This document shows positions 24,729 to 34,651 of a stretch of DNA of 64,000 nt, piece after piece. The notes under the pieces are model-generated. The model worked only from the letters and a program-made list of their open reading frames with translations, made no database searches and was not told the origin of the DNA. This DNA is from Candidatus Latescibacterota bacterium (GTDB taxonomy: Bacteria; Latescibacterota; UBA2968). The translations under genes were made by a program, and so were the position numbers. The stretch is taken from positions 576,001 to 640,000 of the forward strand of contig OZ242010.1 of NCBI GenBank assembly GCA_965204745.1, written 5' to 3'. The stretch's first letter is position 1; every line of letters starts with the position of its first letter.

Positions 24729-25796
24729 CTAGTAATCCCCATTCTCCAGCCTTTGCAACGCTGTTAGGCGAGGTTTGCCGCCGCAGATCTTGAGGTAGGT
24801 TTCAAAACGATCTGTGCCATAGAGGTATTTGTTCAGGAATGCGCGATAGGTGTCGGGGGCGCGCTCGGCGTCTAGCCACGCCTTGAGGTGCGCTTCGTCA
24901 GAGGCGTATTCGCCTGCCATGTTGCCGGGATACGACCCCCAGGGGACGTGGCACACGGCATTGACGCAAAATGCGGGGATCGCGGTCGCATTGGGGTCGC
25001 GGCGGATCTCATCGGTGCTCACAACGCGCTCGGCGCTCACAATCACATGTTTGGCTGCGCGGGGCAAATCCCAATCGGCAACCGTGATGCCCCGAATGCG
25101 GCAATTGCCGCGTCTGTCGCTCTCGTGTACGTGGATCAGTGCCACGTCGGGGTACAGCGCGGGCACGGCGACGAGGGGTTTGCCGGTGAAGGGACATTCG
25201 ATTTTTTTGGCTGCACTCTCGTCGAACGTATCCGTGCCCAGCATGCTGCGAATCGGCAAAAAAGGCACGCCGGTTGCAGCGGCCCGAAACCGACAGGCCA
25301 GCGCGTAATTCGTCCACTCGCACACCGCAACCGCGCCGCTCTCCATTAATCGCCGCGCCTGTGCGGACAACCCGCGCGCTTCCAAGCCCACAATATAGGC
25401 CGCATCTACCCGCGATAAAATTTGTTTTCCACTGCGCGTCCCGGCTGCCAAAATCTGAAAGTCGTGGGTGGTGGTATGACCGGCAAATCCCAGGTTCACG
25501 CGCTCTTGCCGCACAATCTCGTGCAACAACGCGGTGGCGATGCGGTTGCCGCCAAATCCGCCAGACGCCACATAGTCGCCATCGTGGACAAACTGGGCAA
25601 TGGCATCGGAGACAGACATCAACTTGTCGGTCAACGCGCCCTTTTTTTGCCGGAAAAACGCCCGTGCAATGTCGGGATCGGGATCGGTGAACAGAGGGCC
25701 TCTGCCCTTACCTCTTGCCTCTTGCCTCTCGCCTCTTGCTTCGTCGGGATCGGTGAACAGGGGGCCTCGGCCGGTGTTTTCGGAGTTTGTCATCAT
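24729..25796 (-). CDS. CoA-transferase alpha subunit with an in-frame repeat insertion near the N-terminus
   Basis: DKLMSVSDAI, GGFG, AAATGVPFLP, CPFTG, PALYPDVALIHV; duplicated GRGPLFTDPD. Confidence 0.9.
   Translation of the reverse strand: MMTNSENTGRGPLFTDPDEARGERQEARGKGRGPLFTDPDPDIARAFFRQKKGALTDKLMSVSDAIAQFVHDGDYVASGGFGGNRIATALLHEIVRQERVNLGFAGHTTTHDFQILAAGTRSGKQILSRVDAAYIVGLEARGLSAQARRLMESGAVAVCEWTNYALACRFRAAATGVPFLPIRSMLGTDTFDESAAKKIECPFTGKPLVAVPALYPDVALIHVHESDRRGNCRIRGITVADWDLPRAAKHVIVSAERVVSTDEIRRDPNATAIPAFCVNAVCHVPWGSYPGNMAGEYASDEAHLKAWLDAERAPDTYRAFLNKYLYGTDRFETYLKICGGKPRLTALQRLENGDY
25678..25772. repeat. 29-bp direct repeat (25678-25706 / 25744-25772) flanking five CTTGCCT-type heptamers
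   Basis: Read directly; the 66-bp period keeps the reading frame. Confidence 0.92.
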
Positions 25797-25810
25797 TTTG
25801 CAGTCTCACT

Positions 25811-26617
25811 TCACAACGCGGTCCAACCGCCATCCACCAGCAAGGTATGCCCCGTGATGAGATCGGCAGCAGGGCTGGCTAAGAACACCACGGCGCCCAC
25901 CACATCTTCGGGCCGTCCAACGCGGCCGAGGGGGATGCGGGAAAGCACGTCTTCGCGCAAGTGGGCATCGTCAAATGTCGATTGGGTCAACGGGGTCAAA
26001 ATAAATGTCGGCCCCACGGCATTGACCGTAATCCGATGGGGCGCCCACTCCACTGCCAACACGCGCGTCAGGTTGACGACACCGGCTTTGCTCGCACAAT
26101 ACGCCGCGCGTTTGTAATAGCCCACCACGCCGTTTTGCGATGCGATGTTGACGATTTTTCCACCCCCCGTTTCGACCATGGATCGCGCCGCGCATTGAGA
26201 CATAAAGAACAGGCCCTTTAGGTTCACGTCCAGCACCGCGTCCCAATCGGCTTCTGTGACGTCGAGTGCGTCTTTGGGGATGTTGATCCCCGCATTGTTC
26301 ACCAGCACGTCGATTCGCCCGTACGCGTCTAACACGCGGCGAACCACCGAGTCGATAGCCGCGAGATTCGGCAGGTGCAAGGGCAAGGGCAATGCCCGGC
26401 GTCCCAGATTTTCAATCGCTTCGCACACCCCGTCCAACGCATCGATCTTTTGCGGCACTTCGCACACGGTCACATCTGCGCCCGCCTCGGCCACTGCCAG
26501 CGCGATGGCCCGCCCAATGCCCGATCCGCCGCCGGTTACCAATACCACGTTGTCATCCAATCGCATGCTGGGCAAGACCATTGCGGCACTCCTCTGATAT
26601 CTTTCGGCGAGGGACAT
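25811..26617 (-). CDS. SDR family oxidoreductase
   Basis: TGGGSGIG, NNAG, YCASK, ITGHTLLVDGG. Confidence 0.95.
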   Translation of the reverse strand: MSLAERYQRSAAMVLPSMRLDDNVVLVTGGGSGIGRAIALAVAEAGADVTVCEVPQKIDALDGVCEAIENLGRRALPLPLHLPNLAAIDSVVRRVLDAYGRIDVLVNNAGINIPKDALDVTEADWDAVLDVNLKGLFFMSQCAARSMVETGGGKIVNIASQNGVVGYYKRAAYCASKAGVVNLTRVLAVEWAPHRITVNAVGPTFILTPLTQSTFDDAHLREDVLSRIPLGRVGRPEDVVGAVVFLASPAADLITGHTLLVDGGWTAL

Positions 26618-26679
26618 AGTCACTGCTCGCCTTTGAACGGGTTGTCGCCAGTTGTACCCCGCCCGTGGCTAAAATCCCT

Positions 26680-26781
26680 CTTGCGTCTTGCCTCTTGCGT
26701 CTTACCTCTTACCTCTTGCGTCTCGCGTCTTACCTCTTGCCTCTTACCTCTCCCGCCTTTCACCTCTTGCCTCTTCCCTCT
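26680..26781 (+). repeat. Degenerate heptamer array CT[T/C][A/G]C[C/G]T, continuing after the IS110 at 28073-28085
   Basis: CTTGCGT CTTGCCT CTTGCGT CTTACCT CTTACCT ... Confidence 0.9.
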
Positions 26782-26794
26782 TGTATCTTGGGCT

Positions 26795-26985
26795 CAAGGG
26801 TTAATTTAGGTGTTGCGCCCTCGCATCGAGACACGCCATCTTGATGCCCTGCTCGGGGAAGGCCGGTGCCTCTTGAAGGCGATGACCTTGTAAGTAAGAT
26901 AGGCCCCCCGACCGCCGGGTCTATGCCGAAGAGTATCTAAGTCCCTTGAGGCTGCATATACAAGACCGGTAGACTTGGCGTCAAT
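26795..26985 (+). ncRNA. Putative IS110 bridge RNA (boundaries approximate)
   Basis: Target loop GGGGAAGGCC[GGTGCCTCT..AAGG/CCTT..AAGTAAGA]GGCCCCCC. Donor loop GGGTCTA.GCCG[AGAGTATCT...ATACAAGA]CCGGTAGAC. Donor guides match the IS ends exactly. Confidence 0.75.
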
Positions 26986-27048
26986 GGTCGGGATCGAACT
27001 CGAGCGCACACCAGACCCCTTACAACCCCCTCATCACAGGAGGCCCCC

Positions 27049-28056
27049 ATGTCGAACGCTCACCCCGCTTTCGCCGGCATTGATGTCAGTGCCCGCACGT
27101 TGTCTGTTGCCCTGTCCAGACCTGGACAAGCTGTCATGCAAGCGACCTTTGACAATGATCCCCAAGCCCATAAGCGGTTGCTGAAGTGGCTCACCAAGGG
27201 CGGGCACATGGTCTCTGTCTGCCTCGAAGCGACCGGGCTTTACAGCTTGGGGGTGGCCTTGGCCTTGCATCGGCATCGCCACACGCAGGTCATGGTCGTC
27301 AATCCCAAAGCGATGAGCAAGTACGGTCAAGCCTGCATGCAACGAGCCAAGACGGATGCGAAGGATGCGTTGTTGATCATGGATTATGCCGAGCGCATGC
27401 CGTTTGTGCCTTGGCAAGCGCCGAGTGAGCAACGGCTCCAACTGCAAGCCCTCACCAGACGCATTGACCAACTCAAGCAGGAGATCATCCGCGAACAGAG
27501 CCGCAACCACGCGCAAAGCTACCACATCCAGAGCACACGTCTCATCGCACGCGATATTCAGGTGAATATTCGACACCTCAAACGCCGGATTGCCTACTTG
27601 GAAGACCAAGCCCTCGATCTCGTTTTGCACGATGAGACCCAAAAGCGCGCCTACCAACACCTCTGCTCTACGCCTGGCATCGCACAAACGAGCGCCTTGC
27701 GGCTCTTGGCCGAGTTGACCCTTTTGCCAGAGGAGATGCAACCGCCCCAGTGGGTCGCACATGCAGACCTGGATCCCAAACCCAAACAATCCGGGACTGC
27801 CAATCCACAAAGACGCATCTCGAAAACCGGGAATAAGTACCTCCGTCATGCCCTCTATATGCCTGCCTGGGTGGCCAGCAGACACGAAGTCCATGTCAAA
27901 GCCTTCTATGACCAACTCATTGCCCGCGGCAAGAAACCTTTGCAGGCTATCGTTGCGGTGATGCGAAAGTTGCTCCATTCGATCTGGGGCATGGTGCGGC
28001 ATGACCAAGATTTTGAGGGCGAGAAATTCTATCGAATCACCCCGAAAACCCCTTGA
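27049..28056 (+). CDS. IS110-family DEDD recombinase
   Basis: GIDVS, CLEATG, KTDAKDA, TPGIA, QSG catalytic Ser, ISKTGNKYLR; AGGAGG RBS. Confidence 0.96.
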   Translation: MSNAHPAFAGIDVSARTLSVALSRPGQAVMQATFDNDPQAHKRLLKWLTKGGHMVSVCLEATGLYSLGVALALHRHRHTQVMVVNPKAMSKYGQACMQRAKTDAKDALLIMDYAERMPFVPWQAPSEQRLQLQALTRRIDQLKQEIIREQSRNHAQSYHIQSTRLIARDIQVNIRHLKRRIAYLEDQALDLVLHDETQKRAYQHLCSTPGIAQTSALRLLAELTLLPEEMQPPQWVAHADLDPKPKQSGTANPQRRISKTGNKYLRHALYMPAWVASRHEVHVKAFYDQLIARGKKPLQAIVAVMRKLLHSIWGMVRHDQDFEGEKFYRITPKTP

Positions 28057-28080
28057 CCTTTTAAGAGAGTATCTCACCTC

Positions 28081-28578
28081 TTACCTTTTTAACAAATTGA
28101 GACCTTCAATTTTTCGCACGGGCGAATCGCGCAAGGACGCCGCTAAAACTCGCATGGATTGCCGCAAGACCGGATGCTTGAGATGCGGGTTGAGGTCGCA
28201 AAGTGGGATCAGCACAAAGGCTCGCTCGTGCAAGTGCGGGTGTGGCACCTGCAAGCCCGGCTGGTGAATGACCACATCGCCGTAGAGTAAGATATCCAAA
28301 TCCACTGTGCGCGGGCCCCATCGCGTTCGGCGCGTGCGACCGAATTGTCGCTCGACCGATAGCAGGTAATTCAACAACTTTCGCACGGAAAGTCGAGAGC
28401 GAAGTTGCAACGCGGCATTGAGAAAACGCGGCTGATCAACCACCCCTACCGGCGCGGTTTCATAGACCGCTGAAGTAGCGACAACAGCGATTTCGGAATG
28501 GGCGTCCAAAACGCCGACCACATTCTGGAGCGTCTTTTCCCGATCCCCCAAATTCGCGCCGATGCCGATGTAGATCAT
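28081..28578 (-). CDS. folK: 2-amino-4-hydroxy-6-hydroxymethyldihydropteridine diphosphokinase
   Basis: IGIGANLGDR, YETAPVG..DQPRFLNA, WGPRTVDLDIL, PHPHLHERAFVL. Confidence 0.97.
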   Translation of the reverse strand: MIYIGIGANLGDREKTLQNVVGVLDAHSEIAVVATSAVYETAPVGVVDQPRFLNAALQLRSRLSVRKLLNYLLSVERQFGRTRRTRWGPRTVDLDILLYGDVVIHQPGLQVPHPHLHERAFVLIPLCDLNPHLKHPVLRQSMRVLAASLRDSPVRKIEGLNLLKR

Positions 28579-28620
28579 GGTCAGTAGTCAGTAGTCAGTG
28601 GTCAGTAGTCAGTGGTCAGT
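28579..28620 (+). repeat. Heptamer tract (GGTCAGT/AGTCAGT)6 abutting the folK start codon
   Basis: Read directly. Confidence 0.92.
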
Positions 28621-28891
28621 CCCCCCGCCATTCCACCCCGCAAGTGAGAGGCGAGACGCAAGAGGCAAGAAGGCCACACCGCCATTCAAACCCGCCATTC
28701 CACCCCGCAAGTGAGAGGCGAGACGCAAGAGGCGAGAAGGCCACACCGCCATTCAACACCGCAAGTGAGAGGCGAGACGCAAGAGGTGAGAAGGCCACAC
28801 CGCCATTCAACCCCGCCATTCAACCCCATAAGTGAGAGGCGAGACGCAAGAGGCGAGAAGGCCACACCGCCATTCAACACCGCAAGTGAGA
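28621..28891 (+). repeat. Tandem array of 54/67-bp units with core AAGTGAGAGGCGAGACGCAAGAGG..AGAAGGCCACACCGCCATTCAA
   Basis: Cores start at 28642, 28709, 28763 and 28830, with a partial at 28884 (spacing 67, 54, 67, 54). Confidence 0.9.
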
Positions 28892-28913
28892 ATGGAGAAA
28901 TGGGACGAGGTGC

Positions 28914-31900
28914 CTATCCCGCATTTTCATGAAAAATTTTTGCCAGATAATCGTAGTTGTCGTCGCGGTCAAAAAAGAGAATGTGCTTGTCGGCGAAATC
29001 CTCGCGGCGCCATGAGCCATTCTCGTAGCGTTCGCACAAGTCCCGATAAGGCGTTGTCGAAATGATGAACGAATCGAGGCGCACCTCCGACACATTGGCG
29101 GGACGGGTTATTTTACGCGCCAATTTGGGCAACCGCTCGTGGAGTCGGGCCTTGTCGTCGTGGCGATAAGCGTTGGCGTTGAGCATGCCGTGCGGTTCGA
29201 TAAATGCGATGCGTTGCCGGTTGGAATCGACAATCCAAAGAATGAAATCGGGATAGAATCCGCTGGTTTCAAAGAACCCGATGCCCGTGCCTCGGCCCTG
29301 ATTCCGCAAAAGAAATACCTCTGTGCCGGCCAGCGCATCGTCCTTCTCTTTTGCCCAGAACGCCTTCAAGTCATCGACAAATCGTCTCTCGCCTTCGTTC
29401 AACCCCGGCGGCGACAGCGTTATTTTATCAGCGCTTTCCACGAGCAAGGGCTGGTACAGGTGTTGATCAAAATGAATGCGCGGCAAATTGCCCCTGTCGC
29501 TTTCGCAGAGCGCGTGGCAATCGGCGATGAGTTGTTCGAGATCGCCTATCAAAGTTTCTTCTGATCGGGGAACGCTGACGATGTACCGCCCGGTACCGCC
29601 GTCTTTGCCGATGTTGAAGTTGAAGTTGGGGTCGCTTTGGTCCAGCGTCTTATAGACCAGGCCCTTTGACTCCCATCGCGCTCGTTTGTGCCGATAGAGC
29701 GCGTCCGCGTATTTTCGCACGATGCTGACCACGGTCTCTTGCAAGCGCTCGCGGTCCGCATAACTGCGCGGTTTTACCACCTGCTCCTCGGCGATCAGGC
29801 GATACGCGGGCGGCGCGGCGACGAGAATCTTTCTCGGCGCATCCGGGCGGATGATCAGGTTGCACAATCCGCGCTGTTCCTTGTAGTCGAGCAGGTCGAG
29901 ATAGACGCGCCCCCAATCCACCAACGCGAGGCTTTTGTGTGGTATGTCCCTTTCCTCGCCGGAGGTGGCGCGGTCCATTTCGGCAAAATCGCTGTCCAAC
30001 TGGCTCACCTTTGCAGACACATCGACCAGCACGGGCCGCACGCCGGAATTGGGGGCCAAGAGCACCTCGGAGTCGGCTGCGAAATCCCGGTCGTCGTCCA
30101 TGCGGGGGATGACCAAGCCCTTGTCGAGAAAGTCCCGATTGGGCCGAATGACCAACGGCAGTTCCAACACCCCATCCGTCGCCACGCCTTCGCGCTCCAA
30201 GTAATCCCGAAATTGGGCCATATAATTGGCGCGCACGGCAAAGATATTGAGCGTTTCCAGCGCCTTGATGTAATCGGGATGCCGCCCGTCGAGTGCGGCG
30301 CTGCGTTTCAGCGTCATCCCCCGCCCGCGCAACCGCACGCCGCGGCCAAACAGCTGGATGATCTGCGACCCCTCGCTCCTGCCAATGTTGAGCAACCCCA
30401 TGTTGGATACGCGCCAGGAATCCCAACCTTCGATAAATTTTCGGGCGCCGATCAGCACCTCAATGGTCGTTCCCGGTTCGTTGATCCCGTCAAACAGCGA
30501 GCCGGAGAAAGCGTCTTCCTCCATCGCGATGCCGGCGTTGTCAGCCGCGACCAGATTTTTGAATTTCGTCGTATCCCCAATGTAAATCAAGCCGAAGTAC
30601 TCCTCGGCCCCGCCGACTTTAAGCCCGATTTCGCCATCGCGGCCGCGGATGTTGCACAGGTGTAGCCCACTGCCGGCGGCGGCGTGCAACACCCTCGCCA
30701 GTATATCCCGATACAGCGTTGCCGAATCCCGCCCGCGCAGGTACTCGAATTTGTCGGCGAAAACGTCTTTTCCATCCGCGTCGCGCAAGCCCGAATGCCC
30801 CGTCAGCAACTGGTCAATCGCACCCGTAGCCCAAGTCGCATTCGCTATCAGCCGATGCAAGAACCGCACCACCGTCAAAATATCGCTCCGGGGTTGGCGT
30901 CTTTCCGTATAGACCGCGTTGACGCTACCGCCCACGAAAACCCACAGGGGTCGGGCCAGATTGTAGGGCCGGAACGCCTCGGCCCGTTCGGCAAAGACGA
31001 GTTGCTGTTCGTAAAAGGAGAGCAAGTTGGCGAGCAGCAACCTATCCGTTTGGTCCGCAGTCGTCTCCTGTTGCAAGTTGAGAATGTGGAAGTCCTTGCC
31101 ATAGCCATCGCCGTAGAAGTAGCGATAGGAATAGTCAAACGCGATGGCCTTGCCGTATTCAGCCATCAGATCCGCGTTCCGCGCCGCGGTCAGGGCTTGC
31201 CCAAAGGTCGCGCTGTACTCGAAGGTGAACCCGGTCTCGCCCAGTGCATCGCGCAGGTTGCGCCACGCTTCGCCGCCAGAGCCTTTGTGCCCCTCGTCGA
31301 CAAAAATCAGGTTGTTGCCCGCAAATGCCTCGACGGGTACGCGCACCCCACCGCCTCGCTTTTCCCCGACCAACTTGGTAATCTCGGTCACCTCGATGGC
31401 ATTTTGCCCCGCCCCCAGCAGGCTGCTTTTGTTCAGTTCAAACCGCGACGCGGGGATGTTGGACGCTTGCAGTTCTGCCAGATGTTGCTCGGTCAATCCT
31501 TCGTTGGGCGTGATCAACAGGATGTTGTCCAATGCCTCGGCATTGTAATGGAGGAACTGCCGGTAGTTCAGGTGCATGATGAGCGTCTTGCCACTGCCGG
31601 TCGCCATCCAAAACGCCAGTTTTCGCAAATCCGCCTCGGCAAATTCCGTTTCCCGCGCCTCTCGGGCGGAACGCTTGACATTGCGCCGTTTGACCAAATC
31701 GTTCAGCGAGCGCAACAACGCGCCTTGGCGGTTGAAGCACCAGTCGAGAAAAATTTCGGTGTATAGGGCCGCCAGATATTGGAAGTAGCGCAAGGTGATG
31801 GGCCGGAGCCGCCCCTTGTTCATCGCCGTCAGATGGGTGCGGATATGGGCGTCGTACTGCGCCAAATCGGCCAGCGAAACATCCTTCAGGTGGCTCGGTC

Positions 31901-32090
31901 GAGACGCCAACCGGGCGTAGATATGGCTACGGCCTTCGGCGTCAAAGCCTTCATCGACCTGCTCCATGTCCGCTAAGAGATCGCGGTTTCCCAGATAGCC
32001 CAGCCGTTCATTCAGCCAGGCCAACAGAACCAGCCGTCGTTCCAGACTGGCATAGTTGCTCGGTTGCACTTGGGTTCGTCGGCGCGGCAT
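28914..32090 (-). CDS. res: Type III restriction endonuclease Res subunit
   Basis: WMATGSGKT, DEGH, YSATF, EGWD, QLFGRGVRL, C-terminal YPDFILW..IEPHG nuclease; downstream of mod. Confidence 0.92.
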   Translation of the reverse strand: MPRRRTQVQPSNYASLERRLVLLAWLNERLGYLGNRDLLADMEQVDEGFDAEGRSHIYARLASRPSHLKDVSLADLAQYDAHIRTHLTAMNKGRLRPITLRYFQYLAALYTEIFLDWCFNRQGALLRSLNDLVKRRNVKRSAREARETEFAEADLRKLAFWMATGSGKTLIMHLNYRQFLHYNAEALDNILLITPNEGLTEQHLAELQASNIPASRFELNKSSLLGAGQNAIEVTEITKLVGEKRGGGVRVPVEAFAGNNLIFVDEGHKGSGGEAWRNLRDALGETGFTFEYSATFGQALTAARNADLMAEYGKAIAFDYSYRYFYGDGYGKDFHILNLQQETTADQTDRLLLANLLSFYEQQLVFAERAEAFRPYNLARPLWVFVGGSVNAVYTERRQPRSDILTVVRFLHRLIANATWATGAIDQLLTGHSGLRDADGKDVFADKFEYLRGRDSATLYRDILARVLHAAAGSGLHLCNIRGRDGEIGLKVGGAEEYFGLIYIGDTTKFKNLVAADNAGIAMEEDAFSGSLFDGINEPGTTIEVLIGARKFIEGWDSWRVSNMGLLNIGRSEGSQIIQLFGRGVRLRGRGMTLKRSAALDGRHPDYIKALETLNIFAVRANYMAQFRDYLEREGVATDGVLELPLVIRPNRDFLDKGLVIPRMDDDRDFAADSEVLLAPNSGVRPVLVDVSAKVSQLDSDFAEMDRATSGEERDIPHKSLALVDWGRVYLDLLDYKEQRGLCNLIIRPDAPRKILVAAPPAYRLIAEEQVVKPRSYADRERLQETVVSIVRKYADALYRHKRARWESKGLVYKTLDQSDPNFNFNIGKDGGTGRYIVSVPRSEETLIGDLEQLIADCHALCESDRGNLPRIHFDQHLYQPLLVESADKITLSPPGLNEGERRFVDDLKAFWAKEKDDALAGTEVFLLRNQGRGTGIGFFETSGFYPDFILWIVDSNRQRIAFIEPHGMLNANAYRHDDKARLHERLPKLARKITRPANVSEVRLDSFIISTTPYRDLCERYENGSWRREDFADKHILFFDRDDNYDYLAKIFHENAG

Positions 32091-32092
32091 CG

Positions 32093-32800
32093 CTAGGTCC
32101 CTTCTGCGAGGATGGCTTCCAACTGACCGATGAGCGGCGGCAGGTGATTCTGCACAATATCGCAGAGCGTATCGAGGTCCACTGAGTCGTACGCGTGCGC
32201 CAACAGGTTGCGCGCGCCGATCATTTTGCCCCACGGCACTGCCGGGTGGCGTTCCCGCGTCGCTGGCGAGACCCGGTTGGCGGCCTCGCCGATAACTTCC
32301 ACGGCGCGCGTAAGGGCCAATTCCTTTATCCAGTCGCCTTCCAAGTCCTCTGGGCTTAGCTCGCCAAACGAATCAACGGCTTTTCTCGCGTAGATGAGCA
32401 TATTCAGCAGGCTCACGCGGTCATCGCGCCGCTTGCCACCCGTCTTGAGGGACTTGTCGCTACCTTCTCGCGCCCAGCTTTCGCATCCCGGCCCCCGCTC
32501 GTACAGCATCTCGGCGGACCCGAGTATTTCCGCTCGCAACAACCAGTTTTGCTTGCTTTCAACCCCCTCGAAAGTGTGCAAATCCGCCTCTCGACCAAAA
32601 ATGGTCGACAATTCGTCCTGCATATCGATGAATGCAAACCCCGGCGTCCGACCCGGCTCAAATTCCACCAGCACATCGACATCGCTTTCTGGCCCGAAAT
32701 CGTCTCGCAACACGGAGCCAAAGAAAGCCAGGCGCCGAATGTGGTTGCGCTGACAGAACGCGGCTATCGCGTCTTTTGAAATCTCGATTTTCGCATTCAT
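32093..32800 (-). CDS. Fused MNT nucleotidyltransferase and HEPN (DUF86) RNase
   Basis: FGSVLRDDFGPESDVD in the N-half; EVIGEAANRVS..PW..RNLLAHAY (RX4HXY) in the C-half; single open frame. Confidence 0.85.
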   Translation of the reverse strand: MNAKIEISKDAIAAFCQRNHIRRLAFFGSVLRDDFGPESDVDVLVEFEPGRTPGFAFIDMQDELSTIFGREADLHTFEGVESKQNWLLRAEILGSAEMLYERGPGCESWAREGSDKSLKTGGKRRDDRVSLLNMLIYARKAVDSFGELSPEDLEGDWIKELALTRAVEVIGEAANRVSPATRERHPAVPWGKMIGARNLLAHAYDSVDLDTLCDIVQNHLPPLIGQLEAILAEGT

Positions 32801-34617: not shown

Positions 34618-34651
34618 AGTAAGAGGTAAGAGGTAAGAGGCAAGAGGTAAG
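34618..34651 (+). repeat. Heptamer tract (GTAAGAG)n
   Basis: Reverse complement of the CTTACCT family. Confidence 0.85.

What the first reader, a model, noticed from the sequence alone, without database searches (positions are those of the whole stretch)
26780..28074. IS110 bridge RNA whose target guides spell the host heptamer repeat
Seen: the donor-loop guides AGAGTATCT (26930-26938) and ATACAAG (26958-26964) match the reconstructed circle junction AGAGTAT-CT-TGTAT (28066-28074 plus 26782-26786) exactly. The target-loop guides TGCCTCT (26867-26873) and GTAAG (26894-26898) specify TGCCT-CT-TAC, the junction of two host heptamers CTTGCCT|CTTACCT; perfect sites occur at 26738-26747 and 34633-34642 (reverse). 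The occupied site TCCCT-CT-CAC differs at one base per arm. Both loops are closed by stems, and circularisation creates TTGACC-N18-TATCTT. Established: the IS621 bridge-RNA mechanism with a CT core and REP targeting. Inference: this recombinase is programmed against a degenerate simple tandem repeat, tolerates mismatches, and could recombine between the many repeat tracts.
Basis: partly seen in the sequence, partly recalled or inferred. Interest (0 to 1): 0.85.

Follow-up and report, generated by a model that had tools for sequence, protein, structure and literature searches.

The report
Bridge-RNA insertion sequence targeting heptamer repeats
This is a working-looking IS110-type jumping gene whose built-in guide RNA aims it at junctions inside the host's seven-base tandem repeats; it is a clear natural example of a known mechanism, not a new one.

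Summary
Window 26782-28072 is a 1291-bp IS110-family element with an intact 335-aa DEDD/Ser recombinase gene. Its left end holds an IS621-type bridge RNA: two stem-loops with internal loops, supported by covariation.

The donor guides match the reconstructed circle junction exactly. The junction would create TTGACC-N18-TATCTT.

The genome holds 52 full-length copies, 30 of them identical. All have the same ends and a CT core, and all lie in or at the edge of CT-rich heptamer tracts. Five target-loop variants occur among these copies. With G·U wobble allowed, 42 of 52 copies have no mismatch to their own guides. No shuffle of guide assignments, 0 of 20000, did as well. The perfect site of the main variant is 80% occupied (20 of 25).

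Two corrections apply. The right target guide is 7 nt (AAGTAAG, specifying TACTT), not GTAAG. The window copy has three mismatches to its own guides but none to those of a sibling copy. Its 5' hairpins and target loop were swapped in from another subfamily. So "tolerates mismatches" is not the best reading for this copy.

No RNA or circle data could be obtained. Verdict: a new, unusually informative member of a known kind, of moderate interest.

The parts
26680..26781 (+). Host heptamer tract (CTYNCNT units) to the left of the insertion. Its last units are CTTGCCT CTTCCCT CT. The left target arm TCCCT is at 26775-26779 and the core CT at 26780-26781.
   Evidence: Sequence. Genome-wide census of 728 tracts of 3 or more units, against 2 in a shuffled 1 Mb.
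26782..28072 (+). Complete IS110-family insertion sequence, 1291 bp. It has no terminal inverted repeats and is flanked by CT on both sides.
   Evidence: 52 full-length copies with the same ends.
26784..26789 (+). TATCTT, a -10-like hexamer in the left end. It only acquires a -35 partner when the element is circular.
   Evidence: TTGACC-N17/18-TAT[CG]TT in 52 of 52 copies; no promoter-like site in the linear region 26600-28200.
26797..26847 (+). Two 5' hairpins that precede the guide loops.
   Evidence: MFE fold.
26853..26911 (+). Target-binding loop: outer stem, internal loop and inner hairpin.
   Evidence: Helices 1 and 2 are 94.7% and 100% paired across 21 relatives.
26867..26874 (+). Left target guide TGCCT+CT, followed by one extra base (T) that matches the first base of the right target arm in the sibling variants.
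   Evidence: This position varies among copies and matches their left flanks. In u5 the extra base is C and its site has C.
26892..26898 (+). Right target guide AAGTAAG, the reverse complement of CT-TACTT.
   Evidence: It varies among copies (AGGTAAG, AAGTAAG, AGGTGAG, ACGGGAG) in step with the right flanks.
26899..26900 (+). AT, at the position of the IS621 target-loop handshake guide. It is complementary to the donor bases AT at 28071-28072.
   Evidence: Assigned by position, by analogy to IS621 nucleotides 81-82 (paper passages). This is an inference.
26913..26980 (+). Donor-binding loop: outer stem, internal loop and inner hairpin.
   Evidence: In helix 3, 9 of 13 pairs show compensatory changes.
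26930..26938 (+). Left donor guide AGAGTATCT, identical to the right end plus core.
   Evidence: Identical in 51 of 52 copies.
26958..26964 (+). Right donor guide ATACAAG, the reverse complement of CT+TGTAT.
   Evidence: Identical in 52 of 52 copies.
27049..28056 (+). Recombinase gene, 335 aa, with DEDD_Tnp_IS110 and Transposase_20 domains. D12, E60, D103, D106 and S248 align with the IS621 catalytic residues.
28053..28058 (+). TTGACC, a -35-like hexamer in the right end that overlaps the stop codon.
   Evidence: A TTGA-type hexamer (TTGAC in 7) lies at the same distance from the end in 10 relatives of 51-62% protein identity, where the stop codon lies elsewhere.
28073..28088 (+). Right core CT at 28073-28074, the right target arm CACCT at 28075-28079, and the rest of the heptamer tract.

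Best explanation
**What it is.** Window 26782-28072 is an intact IS110-family insertion sequence that works like IS621. On excision the two ends join across a CT core. This places a -35 box (TTGACC, right end) 18 nt from a -10-like box (TATCTT, left end) and would drive transcription of a roughly 190-nt bridge RNA from the left end.

**How the RNA guides it.**
- The second internal loop (AGAGUAUCU / AUACAAG) pairs with both strands of the element's own junction, AGAGTAT-CT-TGTAT.
- The first internal loop pairs with a 12-bp word that spans the join of two host heptamers.
- The DEDD/Ser recombinase then exchanges strands at the CT.

**The family in this genome.**
- All copies share one donor code.
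- The 52 full-length copies carry five target codes:
  - CCCCT-CT-TACCT
  - CGCCT-CT-TACTT
  - TGCCT-CT-TACTT
  - TCCCT-CT-CACCT
  - CCCCT-CT-CCCGT
- The degraded copies add a few more.
- The family has recently multiplied into 52 full copies at matching heptamer junctions.

**The window copy.** It carries the TGCCT-CT-TACTT code but sits at TCCCT-CT-CACCT, the exact cognate site of a sibling copy's code. Two routes would explain this:
- It was inserted with, or by, a TCCCT/CACCT-type bridge RNA, and its target loop was later replaced by recombination with another subfamily. The mosaic structure is shown here.
- It was inserted in trans by the sibling's RNA.

**Shown versus inferred.**
- Shown: the anatomy, copy ends, guide-site covariation, RNA structure covariation, the mosaic structure and conserved catalytic residues.
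- Inferred: transcription, the circle, activity, and which of the two routes placed this copy.
For: **Protein.**
- Pfam DEDD_Tnp_IS110 scores 4e-24 and Transposase_20 scores 3e-17.
- The protein matches the IS621 recombinase (E 2e-33) and ISCro4 (E 2e-36), with the catalytic D, E, D, D and S aligned.
- 51 of 52 copies have an intact 335-aa frame.

**Ends.** 52 full-length copies share CT|TGTAT...AGAGTAT|CT.

**RNA structure.**
- The fold gives two stem-loops with internal loops.
- Across 21 relatives, 94.8% of cells are paired.
- 14 of 30 pairs show compensatory changes.
- 0 of 500 shuffles reach these values, and slid controls pair at only 29-54%.

**Guides.**
- The donor guides are identical to the junction.
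- 42 of 52 copies have no non-wobble mismatch to their own target guides.
- Shuffling the guide sets never reaches the observed total: 0 of 20000, observed 21 against a mean of 35.7.
- Relatives in two other genomes, and 51-62% identical relatives elsewhere, also have target loops that match their flanks.

**Occupancy follows the quality of the match.**

| Site | Occupied | Empty |
|---|---|---|
| CCCCT-CT-TACCT (perfect) | 20 | 5 |
| CCCCT-CT-TGCCT (wobble) | 16 | 65 |
| TACCT-CT-TACCT (2 mismatches) | 4 | 78 or more |

**Recent activity.** 30 copies are 100% identical.

**Junction promoter.** It is present in 52 of 52 copies and at N17 in 10 distant relatives.

**Window copy.**
- It has 3 mismatches to its own guides and 0 to the u5 guides.
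- Columns 15-116 differ from subfamily u3 at 1 of 102 positions, against 109 of 884 further on (Fisher 8e-5).
- Against u1 the pattern is the reverse.
Against: - **No direct evidence of RNA, circle or movement.** No listed sequencing run is RNA. The four runs laid are short-read contigs and show no circle junction and no empty site.
- **No Rfam match.** Rfam 15 gave no bridge-RNA hit. The two weak hits there are chance-level.
- **Weak single-sequence fold.** It is only modestly better than shuffles (z -1.88).
- **The window copy is a singleton.** Its own guides do not explain its site. The 22 perfect sites for its code are all empty, so this copy may never have moved under its own RNA.
- **Some sites remain unexplained.** After allowing for the window copy, the two CCCGT copies and a parse artefact, 6 of 52 copies sit at sites that no observed guide set explains fully.
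- **Limited independence.** Covariation within the genome rests on a few independent guide changes, because 45 of 52 copies share one guide set.
Confidence: 0.88

Rival explanations
1. The window copy was inserted by its own bridge RNA (TGCCUCU / AAGUAAG) into an imperfect site, which shows that the enzyme tolerates one mismatch per arm.
For: - On a 5+2+3 reading the site differs at one base per arm.
- Published IS621 off-targets typically carry one or two mismatches (passages).
- 10 of 52 copies here do sit at sites with true mismatches.
Against: - With the 7-nt right guide defined by the sibling copies, the site has 3 true mismatches: G·G, A·C and A·C.
- 22 perfect sites for this code stay empty.
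- The same site word is a 0-mismatch match to the guides of copy c1297036p. That copy sits at an independent site with the same word.
- The target-loop segment of the window copy has a different ancestry from the rest of the element.
Confidence: 0.15
2. The guide-site matches are an artefact of low complexity. Any CT-rich loop sequence would match a CT-rich repeat, and target choice is made by the protein or by the repeat's structure, not by the RNA.
For: - The targets are simple repeats, and the guide words are themselves heptamer-like.
- A recent preprint reports a structural determinant in the target for ISPpu10, in addition to base pairing (abstract only).
Against: - The commonest heptamer junctions carry no copy: TGCCT-CT-TGCCT (219), TGCCT-CT-CACCT (116) and CACCT-CT-CACCT (109).
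- The rare CCCCT-CT-TRCCT word carries 36 of the 45 copies with the main guide set.
- Minority guide variants sit at their own words.
- Relatives in a genome with one match to the same three-unit heptamer pattern have loops that match a different, non-heptamer site.
- No permutation reached the observed fit, 0 of 20000.
Confidence: 0.04
3. The window copy is a dead relic. The family was active, but this mosaic singleton no longer moves, and its guide RNA is irrelevant today.
For: - It is a singleton at 95-96% identity to the active subfamilies.
- There are no copies at its 22 perfect sites.
- Its junction spacer is 18 nt rather than 17.
Against: - The reading frame is intact and the catalytic residues are present.
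- Both loops and all four guides are intact, and the donor guides match its own ends.
- The 30 identical copies of the main subfamily also have the N18 spacer.
Confidence: 0.3

Closest known systems
IS621 of Escherichia coli (IS110 family, IS110 group), the founding bridge-RNA element
   Same: - Same two Pfam domains and aligned catalytic D, E, D, D and S.
- The bridge RNA lies in the left end, with a 5' hairpin region followed by target and donor stem-loops with internal loops (paper section read).
[quoted passage not shown]
- CT core.
- A promoter is rebuilt across the circle junction (passages).
- The natural target is a high-copy host repeat.
   Different: - The protein relationship is distant (E 2e-33). 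A DNA search of E. coli genomes found nothing.
- The target is a junction in a degenerate 7-bp tandem repeat, not a REP palindrome.
- The left arm effectively matches 5 nt rather than 7. The loop carries one extra base after the core that matches the first base of the right arm.
- The right target guide is naturally 7 nt. In IS621 it is 4 nt and the 7-nt form was engineered.
- The right donor guide can pair contiguously. In IS621 it pairs discontiguously.
- Copy number is 52, with several target codes in one genome.
ISCro4 transposase (PDB 9t56)
   Same: It is the best-scoring solved relative (E 2e-36, aligned over residues 8-326).
   Different: I have only the depositor's molecule name. I did not examine its RNA or its target.
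ISPpu9 / ISPpu10 of Pseudomonas putida (IS110 family)
   Same: These are multi-copy IS110 elements that insert into repeated intergenic sequences. ISPpu10 is described as trans-acting (abstracts and section headings only).
   Different: Their targets are REP or a conserved stem-loop-bearing intergenic sequence. I did not look for a target stem-loop requirement here. Their copy numbers are much lower: seven for ISPpu9 (abstract).
CazIS110-1 of Caloranaerobacter azorensis
   Same: A multi-copy natural IS110 element (10 copies) with the same loop architecture. It was used to argue for copy-out rather than cut-out transposition (passages). That model fits the 30 identical copies here.
   Different: It comes from a different host and has a different target. 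I made no sequence comparison.

Membership tests
IS110 family (IS110 group) bridge recombinase element | N-terminal RuvC-like DEDD domain (PF01548) with the four acidic residues | tested here: met
   PF01548 scores 4.4e-24 over residues 9-154. D12, E60, D103 and D106 align with IS621 D11, E60, D102 and D105 (residue list; the PDB chain index is offset by 2).
IS110 family (IS110 group) bridge recombinase element | C-terminal Tnp domain (PF02371) with the catalytic serine | tested here: met
   PF02371 scores 3.4e-17 over residues 203-287. S248 in KQSGT aligns with the IS621 serine in YESGS, which is S241 in the paper's numbering.
IS110 family (IS110 group) bridge recombinase element | No terminal inverted repeats, with a short core dinucleotide present at both junctions | tested here: met
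   The ends TGTAT... and ...AGAGTAT are not inverted repeats. 51 of 52 copies have CT immediately before the parsed left end; the exception, c5198951m, was parsed one base out of register because its left end is mutated. All 52 have CT immediately after the right end.
IS110 family (IS110 group) bridge recombinase element | Non-coding RNA in the left end, with two stem-loops that each carry an internal loop | tested here: met
   MFE fold. Consensus fold and pair counts over 21 sequences from at least 10 genomes: 94.8% of cells paired, 14 of 30 pairs compensatory, 0 of 500 shuffles. A covariance model finds 60 loci in the genome, all but one weak hit inside IS copies or fragments. No Rfam family matched.
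IS110 family (IS110 group) bridge recombinase element | [quoted passage not shown] | tested here: met
   AGAGTATCT equals the right end plus core, and ATACAAG is the reverse complement of the core plus left end. This holds in the relatives too.
IS110 family (IS110 group) bridge recombinase element | Target loop complementary to the insertion site and co-varying with it | tested here: met
   Met for the family: 42 of 52 copies have no non-wobble mismatch and 0 of 20000 permutations do as well, and the relatives behave the same way. The window copy does not match its own site: 3 mismatches.
IS110 family (IS110 group) bridge recombinase element | Sigma-70-like promoter rebuilt across the circle junction | tested here: met
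   Met by sequence only. TTGACC-N17/18-TAT[CG]TT occurs in 52 of 52 copies. A TTGA-type hexamer (TTGAC in 7) with an N17 spacer occurs in 10 relatives. There is no promoter-like site in the linear copy.
IS110 family (IS110 group) bridge recombinase element | Circular intermediate and expressed bridge RNA | not testable with these tools
   No RNA run was listed. The runs laid are contigs and show no circle junction.

The most novel reading that the evidence does not exclude
One genome maintains a guild of bridge RNAs. All copies share a single donor code, so any copy's circle can be placed by any sibling's RNA. Target loops are traded between copies by recombination.

This lets the family spread across different junctions of a degenerate tandem repeat until the matching sites are nearly saturated. 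The heptamer arrays and REP-like hairpins that carry a left-end-like TGTATCTT prefix may have co-expanded with the element, or may serve as half-donor sites for it.

Three copies hint at this. The window copy and two copies at CCCCT-CT-CCCGT sit at sites that are cognate to another variant's guides. The repeats are abundant only in the three genus members that carry the element.
Probability: 0.3. Interest if true: 0.65.

Novelty: new member of a known kind. Interest (0 to 1): 0.45.

Why it matters
Bridge recombinases are being developed as programmable genome editors, and most specificity data come from IS621 in E. coli.

This genome offers a natural specificity experiment. Thirty identical copies give a site profile:
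- 15 at perfect sites;
- 12 at G·U-wobble sites;
- 3 at sites with two distal left-arm mismatches.

Occupancy falls from 80% to 20% to about 5% as the match worsens. At least five target codes sit on one donor code. A copy whose target loop was swapped by recombination shows how retargeting can occur in nature.

It also shows that simple tandem repeats, not only REP palindromes, can serve as landing pads. None of this changes the known mechanism.

Tried and rejected
- **Rfam 15 at a permissive threshold on 26500-28300.** It gave only two chance-level hits, a microRNA model and a Streptococcus sRNA model, and no bridge-RNA family.
- **DNA search of 5,426 E. coli genomes with the whole element, to fetch IS621 for direct comparison.** No match. 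The IS621 comparison therefore rests on the protein alignment to PDB 8wt6 and on text from the papers. My memory that IS621's donor word is close to this one could not be checked. The string was not in the paper's text and I do not rely on it.
- **Sequencing runs.** 21 runs were listed and no RNA holder was listed.
- **Laying four runs (X1, X2, X4, X7; contigs only).**
  - The contigs are fragmented across the repeats.
  - The left and right junctions of the window copy are covered by contigs in X1 and X2.
  - No contig bridges an empty site and none shows the circle junction.
  - Contigs cannot show rare forms, so this says nothing either way.
- **Promoter and terminator scan of the linear copy.** Nothing found.
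- **A second IS110 family behind the other TGTATCTT-prefixed repeats.** tblastn found no diverged recombinase gene. All 73 hits are this family or its fragments.
- **A MITE with both IS ends.** Right-end-type words (AAGAGAGTATCT) occur 55 times (42 with one right-end context, 13 with another). The remaining GAGTATCT words are the internal donor guide or scattered singletons. I found no non-autonomous element with both ends.
- **A footprint origin for the TGTATCTT prefix.**
  - In genome G082 I read 12 regions around the same hairpin motif.
  - Eleven held the hairpin. None is directly preceded by TGTATCTT plus one base.
  - Their prefixes vary, mostly ending ATCTTT or TTTTC.
  - I left the origin of the prefix open.
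- **Supplements.** The papers' supplementary files were not opened. Durrant et al.'s supplementary tables of natural targets may already list elements of this lineage.
- **Literature.**
  - Searches for IS110 with tandem-repeat targets returned no listed title or abstract that describes insertion into simple tandem repeats.
  - In the two preprints I opened, 'tandem repeat' refers to duplicated cargo or expanded IS110 loci.
  - A search for Latescibacter, sponge, repeat and transposase returned one unrelated paper.
  - A search for heptanucleotide repeats with insertion sequences returned only frameshifting papers and other unrelated papers.
Full report
**What is there.**
- The window region 26500-28400 holds a 335-aa open reading frame at 27049-28056.
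- The protein has the two Pfam domains of IS110-family recombinases: DEDD_Tnp_IS110 (4.4e-24) and Transposase_20 (3.4e-17).
- It aligns over residues 8-326 with the solved IS621 recombinase (E 2e-33) and with ISCro4 (E 2e-36).
- D12, E60, D103, D106 and S248 align with the residues the IS621 structure paper names as catalytic: D11, E60, D102, D105 and S241 (passages read). The PDB chain index is offset by two.

**Boundaries and copy number.**
- A search of the window's own 5.48-Mb single-contig genome found 75 BLAST segments.
- 52 of them are full-length copies. All end ...AGAGTAT; 51 begin TGTAT and one (c5198951m) has a mutated left end. Each is flanked by CT on both sides.
- This fixes the element at 26782-28072.
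- 51 of 52 copies keep the 335-aa frame.
- There are 15 distinct full-length sequences. 30 copies are 100% identical and 8 more are identical to each other. The family has therefore multiplied very recently.

**The RNA.**
- Folding 26795-26985 gives two small 5' hairpins, then two stem-loops with internal loops, at 26853-26911 and 26913-26980. The energy is only modestly better than shuffles (z -1.88).
- I collected relatives from two closed genomes of the same genus (75-82% protein identity; record titles name uncultured Latescibacteria / Candidatus Latescibacterota). I also collected relatives of 46-62% identity from other genomes.
- I aligned 21 distinct RNA regions.
- The consensus fold recovers the same four helices.
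- Pair counts support them: 94.8% of cells paired against 87.0% in shuffles, 14 of 30 pairs with compensatory changes, 0 of 500 shuffles as high, and 29-54% paired when partners are slid.
- This is the architecture Durrant et al. describe for IS110 ncRNAs (section read).
- Rfam has no matching family.
- A covariance model built from the alignment finds 60 loci in the genome: 52 in full copies, 7 in fragments and one weak hit.

**Donor guides.**
- The 5' side of the second loop is AGAGTATCT (26930-26938), identical to the right end plus core.
- The 3' side is ATACAAG (26958-26964), the reverse complement of the core plus TGTAT.
- These are invariant in 51 and 52 of 52 copies respectively.

**Junction promoter.**
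- Joining the ends puts TTGACC (28053-28058) 18 nt from TATCTT (26784-26789).
- All 52 copies have TTGACC-N17/18-TAT[CG]TT.
- Ten relatives of 51-62% identity have a TTGA-type hexamer (TTGAC in 7) with an N17 spacer, although their stop codons lie elsewhere.
- The linear copy has no promoter-like site.

**Target guides.**
- The 52 copies have 10 distinct left-end variants.
- The variants define a 7-nt left guide (5 + CT) and a 7-nt right guide (CT + 5).

| Left guide / right guide | Copies | Observed sites (count) |
|---|---|---|
| CCCCTCT / AGGTAAG | 45 | CCCCT-CT-TACCT (20), CCCCT-CT-TGCCT (16) |
| CGCCTCT / AAGTAAG | 4 | CGCCT-CT-TACTT (2), CGCCT-CT-TACCT (1), CACCT-CT-TACTT (1) |
| TGCCTCT / AAGTAAG | 2 | TACCT-CT-TACTT (1), window copy TCCCT-CT-CACCT (1) |
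| TCCCTCT / AGGTGAG | 1 | TCCCT-CT-CACCT (1) |

- Most apparent mismatches are places where a guide U or G faces G or T, that is, wobble pairs.
- Counting Watson-Crick pairs only, 23 of 52 copies are perfect. With wobble allowed, 42 of 52 are perfect, 2 have one mismatch, 5 have two and 3 have three.
- One of the 'three' cases is c5198951m, whose mutated left end put my parse one base out of register.
- Shuffling the guide sets among copies gave a mean of 35.7 mismatches (sd 2.4, minimum 24) against 21 observed. None of 20000 shuffles did as well.
- Degraded copies add further loops. One, TTCCCC-CT, matches its flank perfectly. Another has the right guide ACGGGAG, which specifies CCCGT.
- In the relatives the loops again match the flanks:
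  - CTCGCCT-CT at heptamer junctions in genome G091;
  - TCC[TC]C-CT-TTTCT at a non-heptamer site in G082;
  - 9-nt left guides that match 5-6 of 7 flank bases in the distant relatives.

**The host repeat.**
- The genome has 728 tracts of three or more CT....T heptamers, 3,964 units in all. A shuffled 1 Mb has 2.
- The commonest units are CTTGCCT, CTCACCT, CTCCCGT, CTTACCT and CTCCCCT.
- The element does not simply land anywhere in the repeats. The commonest junctions carry no copy: TGCCT-CT-TGCCT (219), TGCCT-CT-CACCT (116) and CACCT-CT-CACCT (109).
- The main subfamily's perfect word has 20 occupied and 5 empty sites. Its wobble word has 16 occupied and 65 empty. TACCT-CT-TACCT has 4 occupied and at least 78 empty.
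- Within the genus, a three-unit heptamer pattern matches 625 times in this genome and 270 times in G091. It matches 0-4 times in the other 19 genomes, including G082.
- By one marker, FolK, G091 (87%) and G082 (81%) are the closest kin, and the rest score 71-77%.
- The element occurs in just these three genomes of the 21 in the genus, and in 12 of 168 genomes of the phylum sample at E <= 1e-30.
- These genomes are kin, so the co-occurrence is one evolutionary event, not a statistical association.

**The window copy itself.**
- Its guides, TGCCUCU and AAGUAAG, specify TGCCT-CT-TACTT.
- There are 22 such sites in the genome, all empty.
- Its own site, TCCCT-CT-CACCT, has three true mismatches to its guides. 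It has none to the guides of copy c1297036p, which sits at an independent site with the same word.
- The window copy is a mosaic:
  - Over alignment columns 15-116 (the 5' hairpins and the whole target loop) it differs from subfamily u3 at 1 of 102 positions, against 109 of 884 over columns 117-1000 (Fisher 8e-5).
  - Against subfamily u1 the pattern is reversed: 9 of 102 against 24 of 884.
  - Columns 1001-1130 are identical to yet another copy.
- So either the target loop was replaced after insertion, or a mosaic circle was placed by a sibling's RNA.
- The second route is plausible for three reasons. All variants share the donor code. Bridge RNA works in trans in the published assays (passages). 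Two copies that are essentially identical to the main subfamily sit at CCCCT-CT-CCCGT, which is cognate only to the ACGGGAG loop now found in degraded copies.
- One-arm ('half-match') off-target insertion, reported in a 2026 preprint (abstract read), is an alternative for those two copies and for the four TACCT-CT-TACCT copies.

**Smaller points.**
- The left guide here effectively matches 5 bases, not the 7 seen in IS621 and in the more distant relatives.
- The loop has one extra base after the core. It is T in most variants and C in u5, and it matches the first base of the right arm in each case. That is a single covarying change.
- The two bases after the right target guide (AT, 26899-26900) are complementary to the last two donor bases before the core. 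This is what the IS621 'handshake guide' model expects. I count it as an analogy, not a test.

**Comparison with what is known.**
- Bridge-RNA guidance, guide-target covariation among natural variants, trans action, junction promoters and repeat targeting are all in print.
- The parts that are new in detail are:
  - the target class, junctions in a degenerate 7-bp tandem repeat;
  - the size and recency of the expansion;
  - the co-existence of several target codes on one donor code;
  - a documented target-loop swap.
- I file it as a new member of a known kind.

**What I could not do.**
- No RNA run was listed.
- The DNA runs are contigs and show neither a circle nor an empty site.
- Supplements were not read.

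Noticed in passing
window ~26590-26680; genome-wide in G000 and G082: A REP-like hairpin element (GGGCGAGCACRGGGCATCGCCC) occurs 88 times in this genome and 302 times in G082, and 0-3 times in the other 19 genomes of the genus.

In 64 of 88 cases here and 95 of 302 in G082 it is directly preceded by TGTATCTT. Those are the first 8 bases of the IS left end. In the listing most sit after a C/T-rich ...CT left flank, like an IS target arm.

The window has a degenerate copy just left of the heptamer tract. Metagenome contig depth there is several hundred times that of the flank.

It may be a half-donor site, a footprint or a coincidence of shared ancestry. This is unresolved.
   Followed up: partly
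G000 genome-wide (e.g. C1:234965, 415940, 2352167): A second short repeat of about 15 copies also begins CT|TGTATCTT and continues with a hairpin (GTAGGCACAGGCGTAGCCTAC). It is preceded by GGAGAGATGTTATTCCCC.

The same left context is the insertion site of the IS relatives in genome G082. No recombinase gene follows it.
   Followed up: partly
G000 genome-wide; window 28616-28900 and 25560-25800: The intergenic DNA is built from a set of recurring modules:
- CT-rich heptamer tracts in both orientations;
- a second heptamer tandem repeat (CTGACAA / CTGACCA / CTGACTA);
- 9-mer repeats (TTTTGTGCC);
- a GCTCGCCTTTGAACTGGCTGTCGCCAGTTGTACCCC unit;
- G-rich GGGCGGGG motifs at tract ends.

Several long mechanical ORFs in the window are translations of these repeats.
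   Followed up: no
G000:C1:1121593-1124180: Two full IS copies from different subfamilies lie head to tail, separated by only 9 bp (CTTACCTCT). The downstream copy's left arm is TACCT, which has two mismatches to its guide.
   Followed up: no
G000:C1:2972661-2972868: A mini-copy of about 190 bp keeps the whole bridge-RNA region up to the right donor guide, then jumps directly to the last 5 bases of the right end (...ATACAAG|AGTAT-CT).

It carries a target loop (CCCCUCU / ACGGGAG) that no full copy has. It scores 99 bits with the RNA model.
   Followed up: partly
window 28914-32234 (-): A 1106-aa open reading frame lies next to the repeat-rich spacer. I did not examine it.
   Followed up: no
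G000:C1:949244-949352 (-): The bridge-RNA covariance model gives a weak hit here (32.8 bits, E 8e-5), outside any copy of this element. I did not examine it.
   Followed up: no
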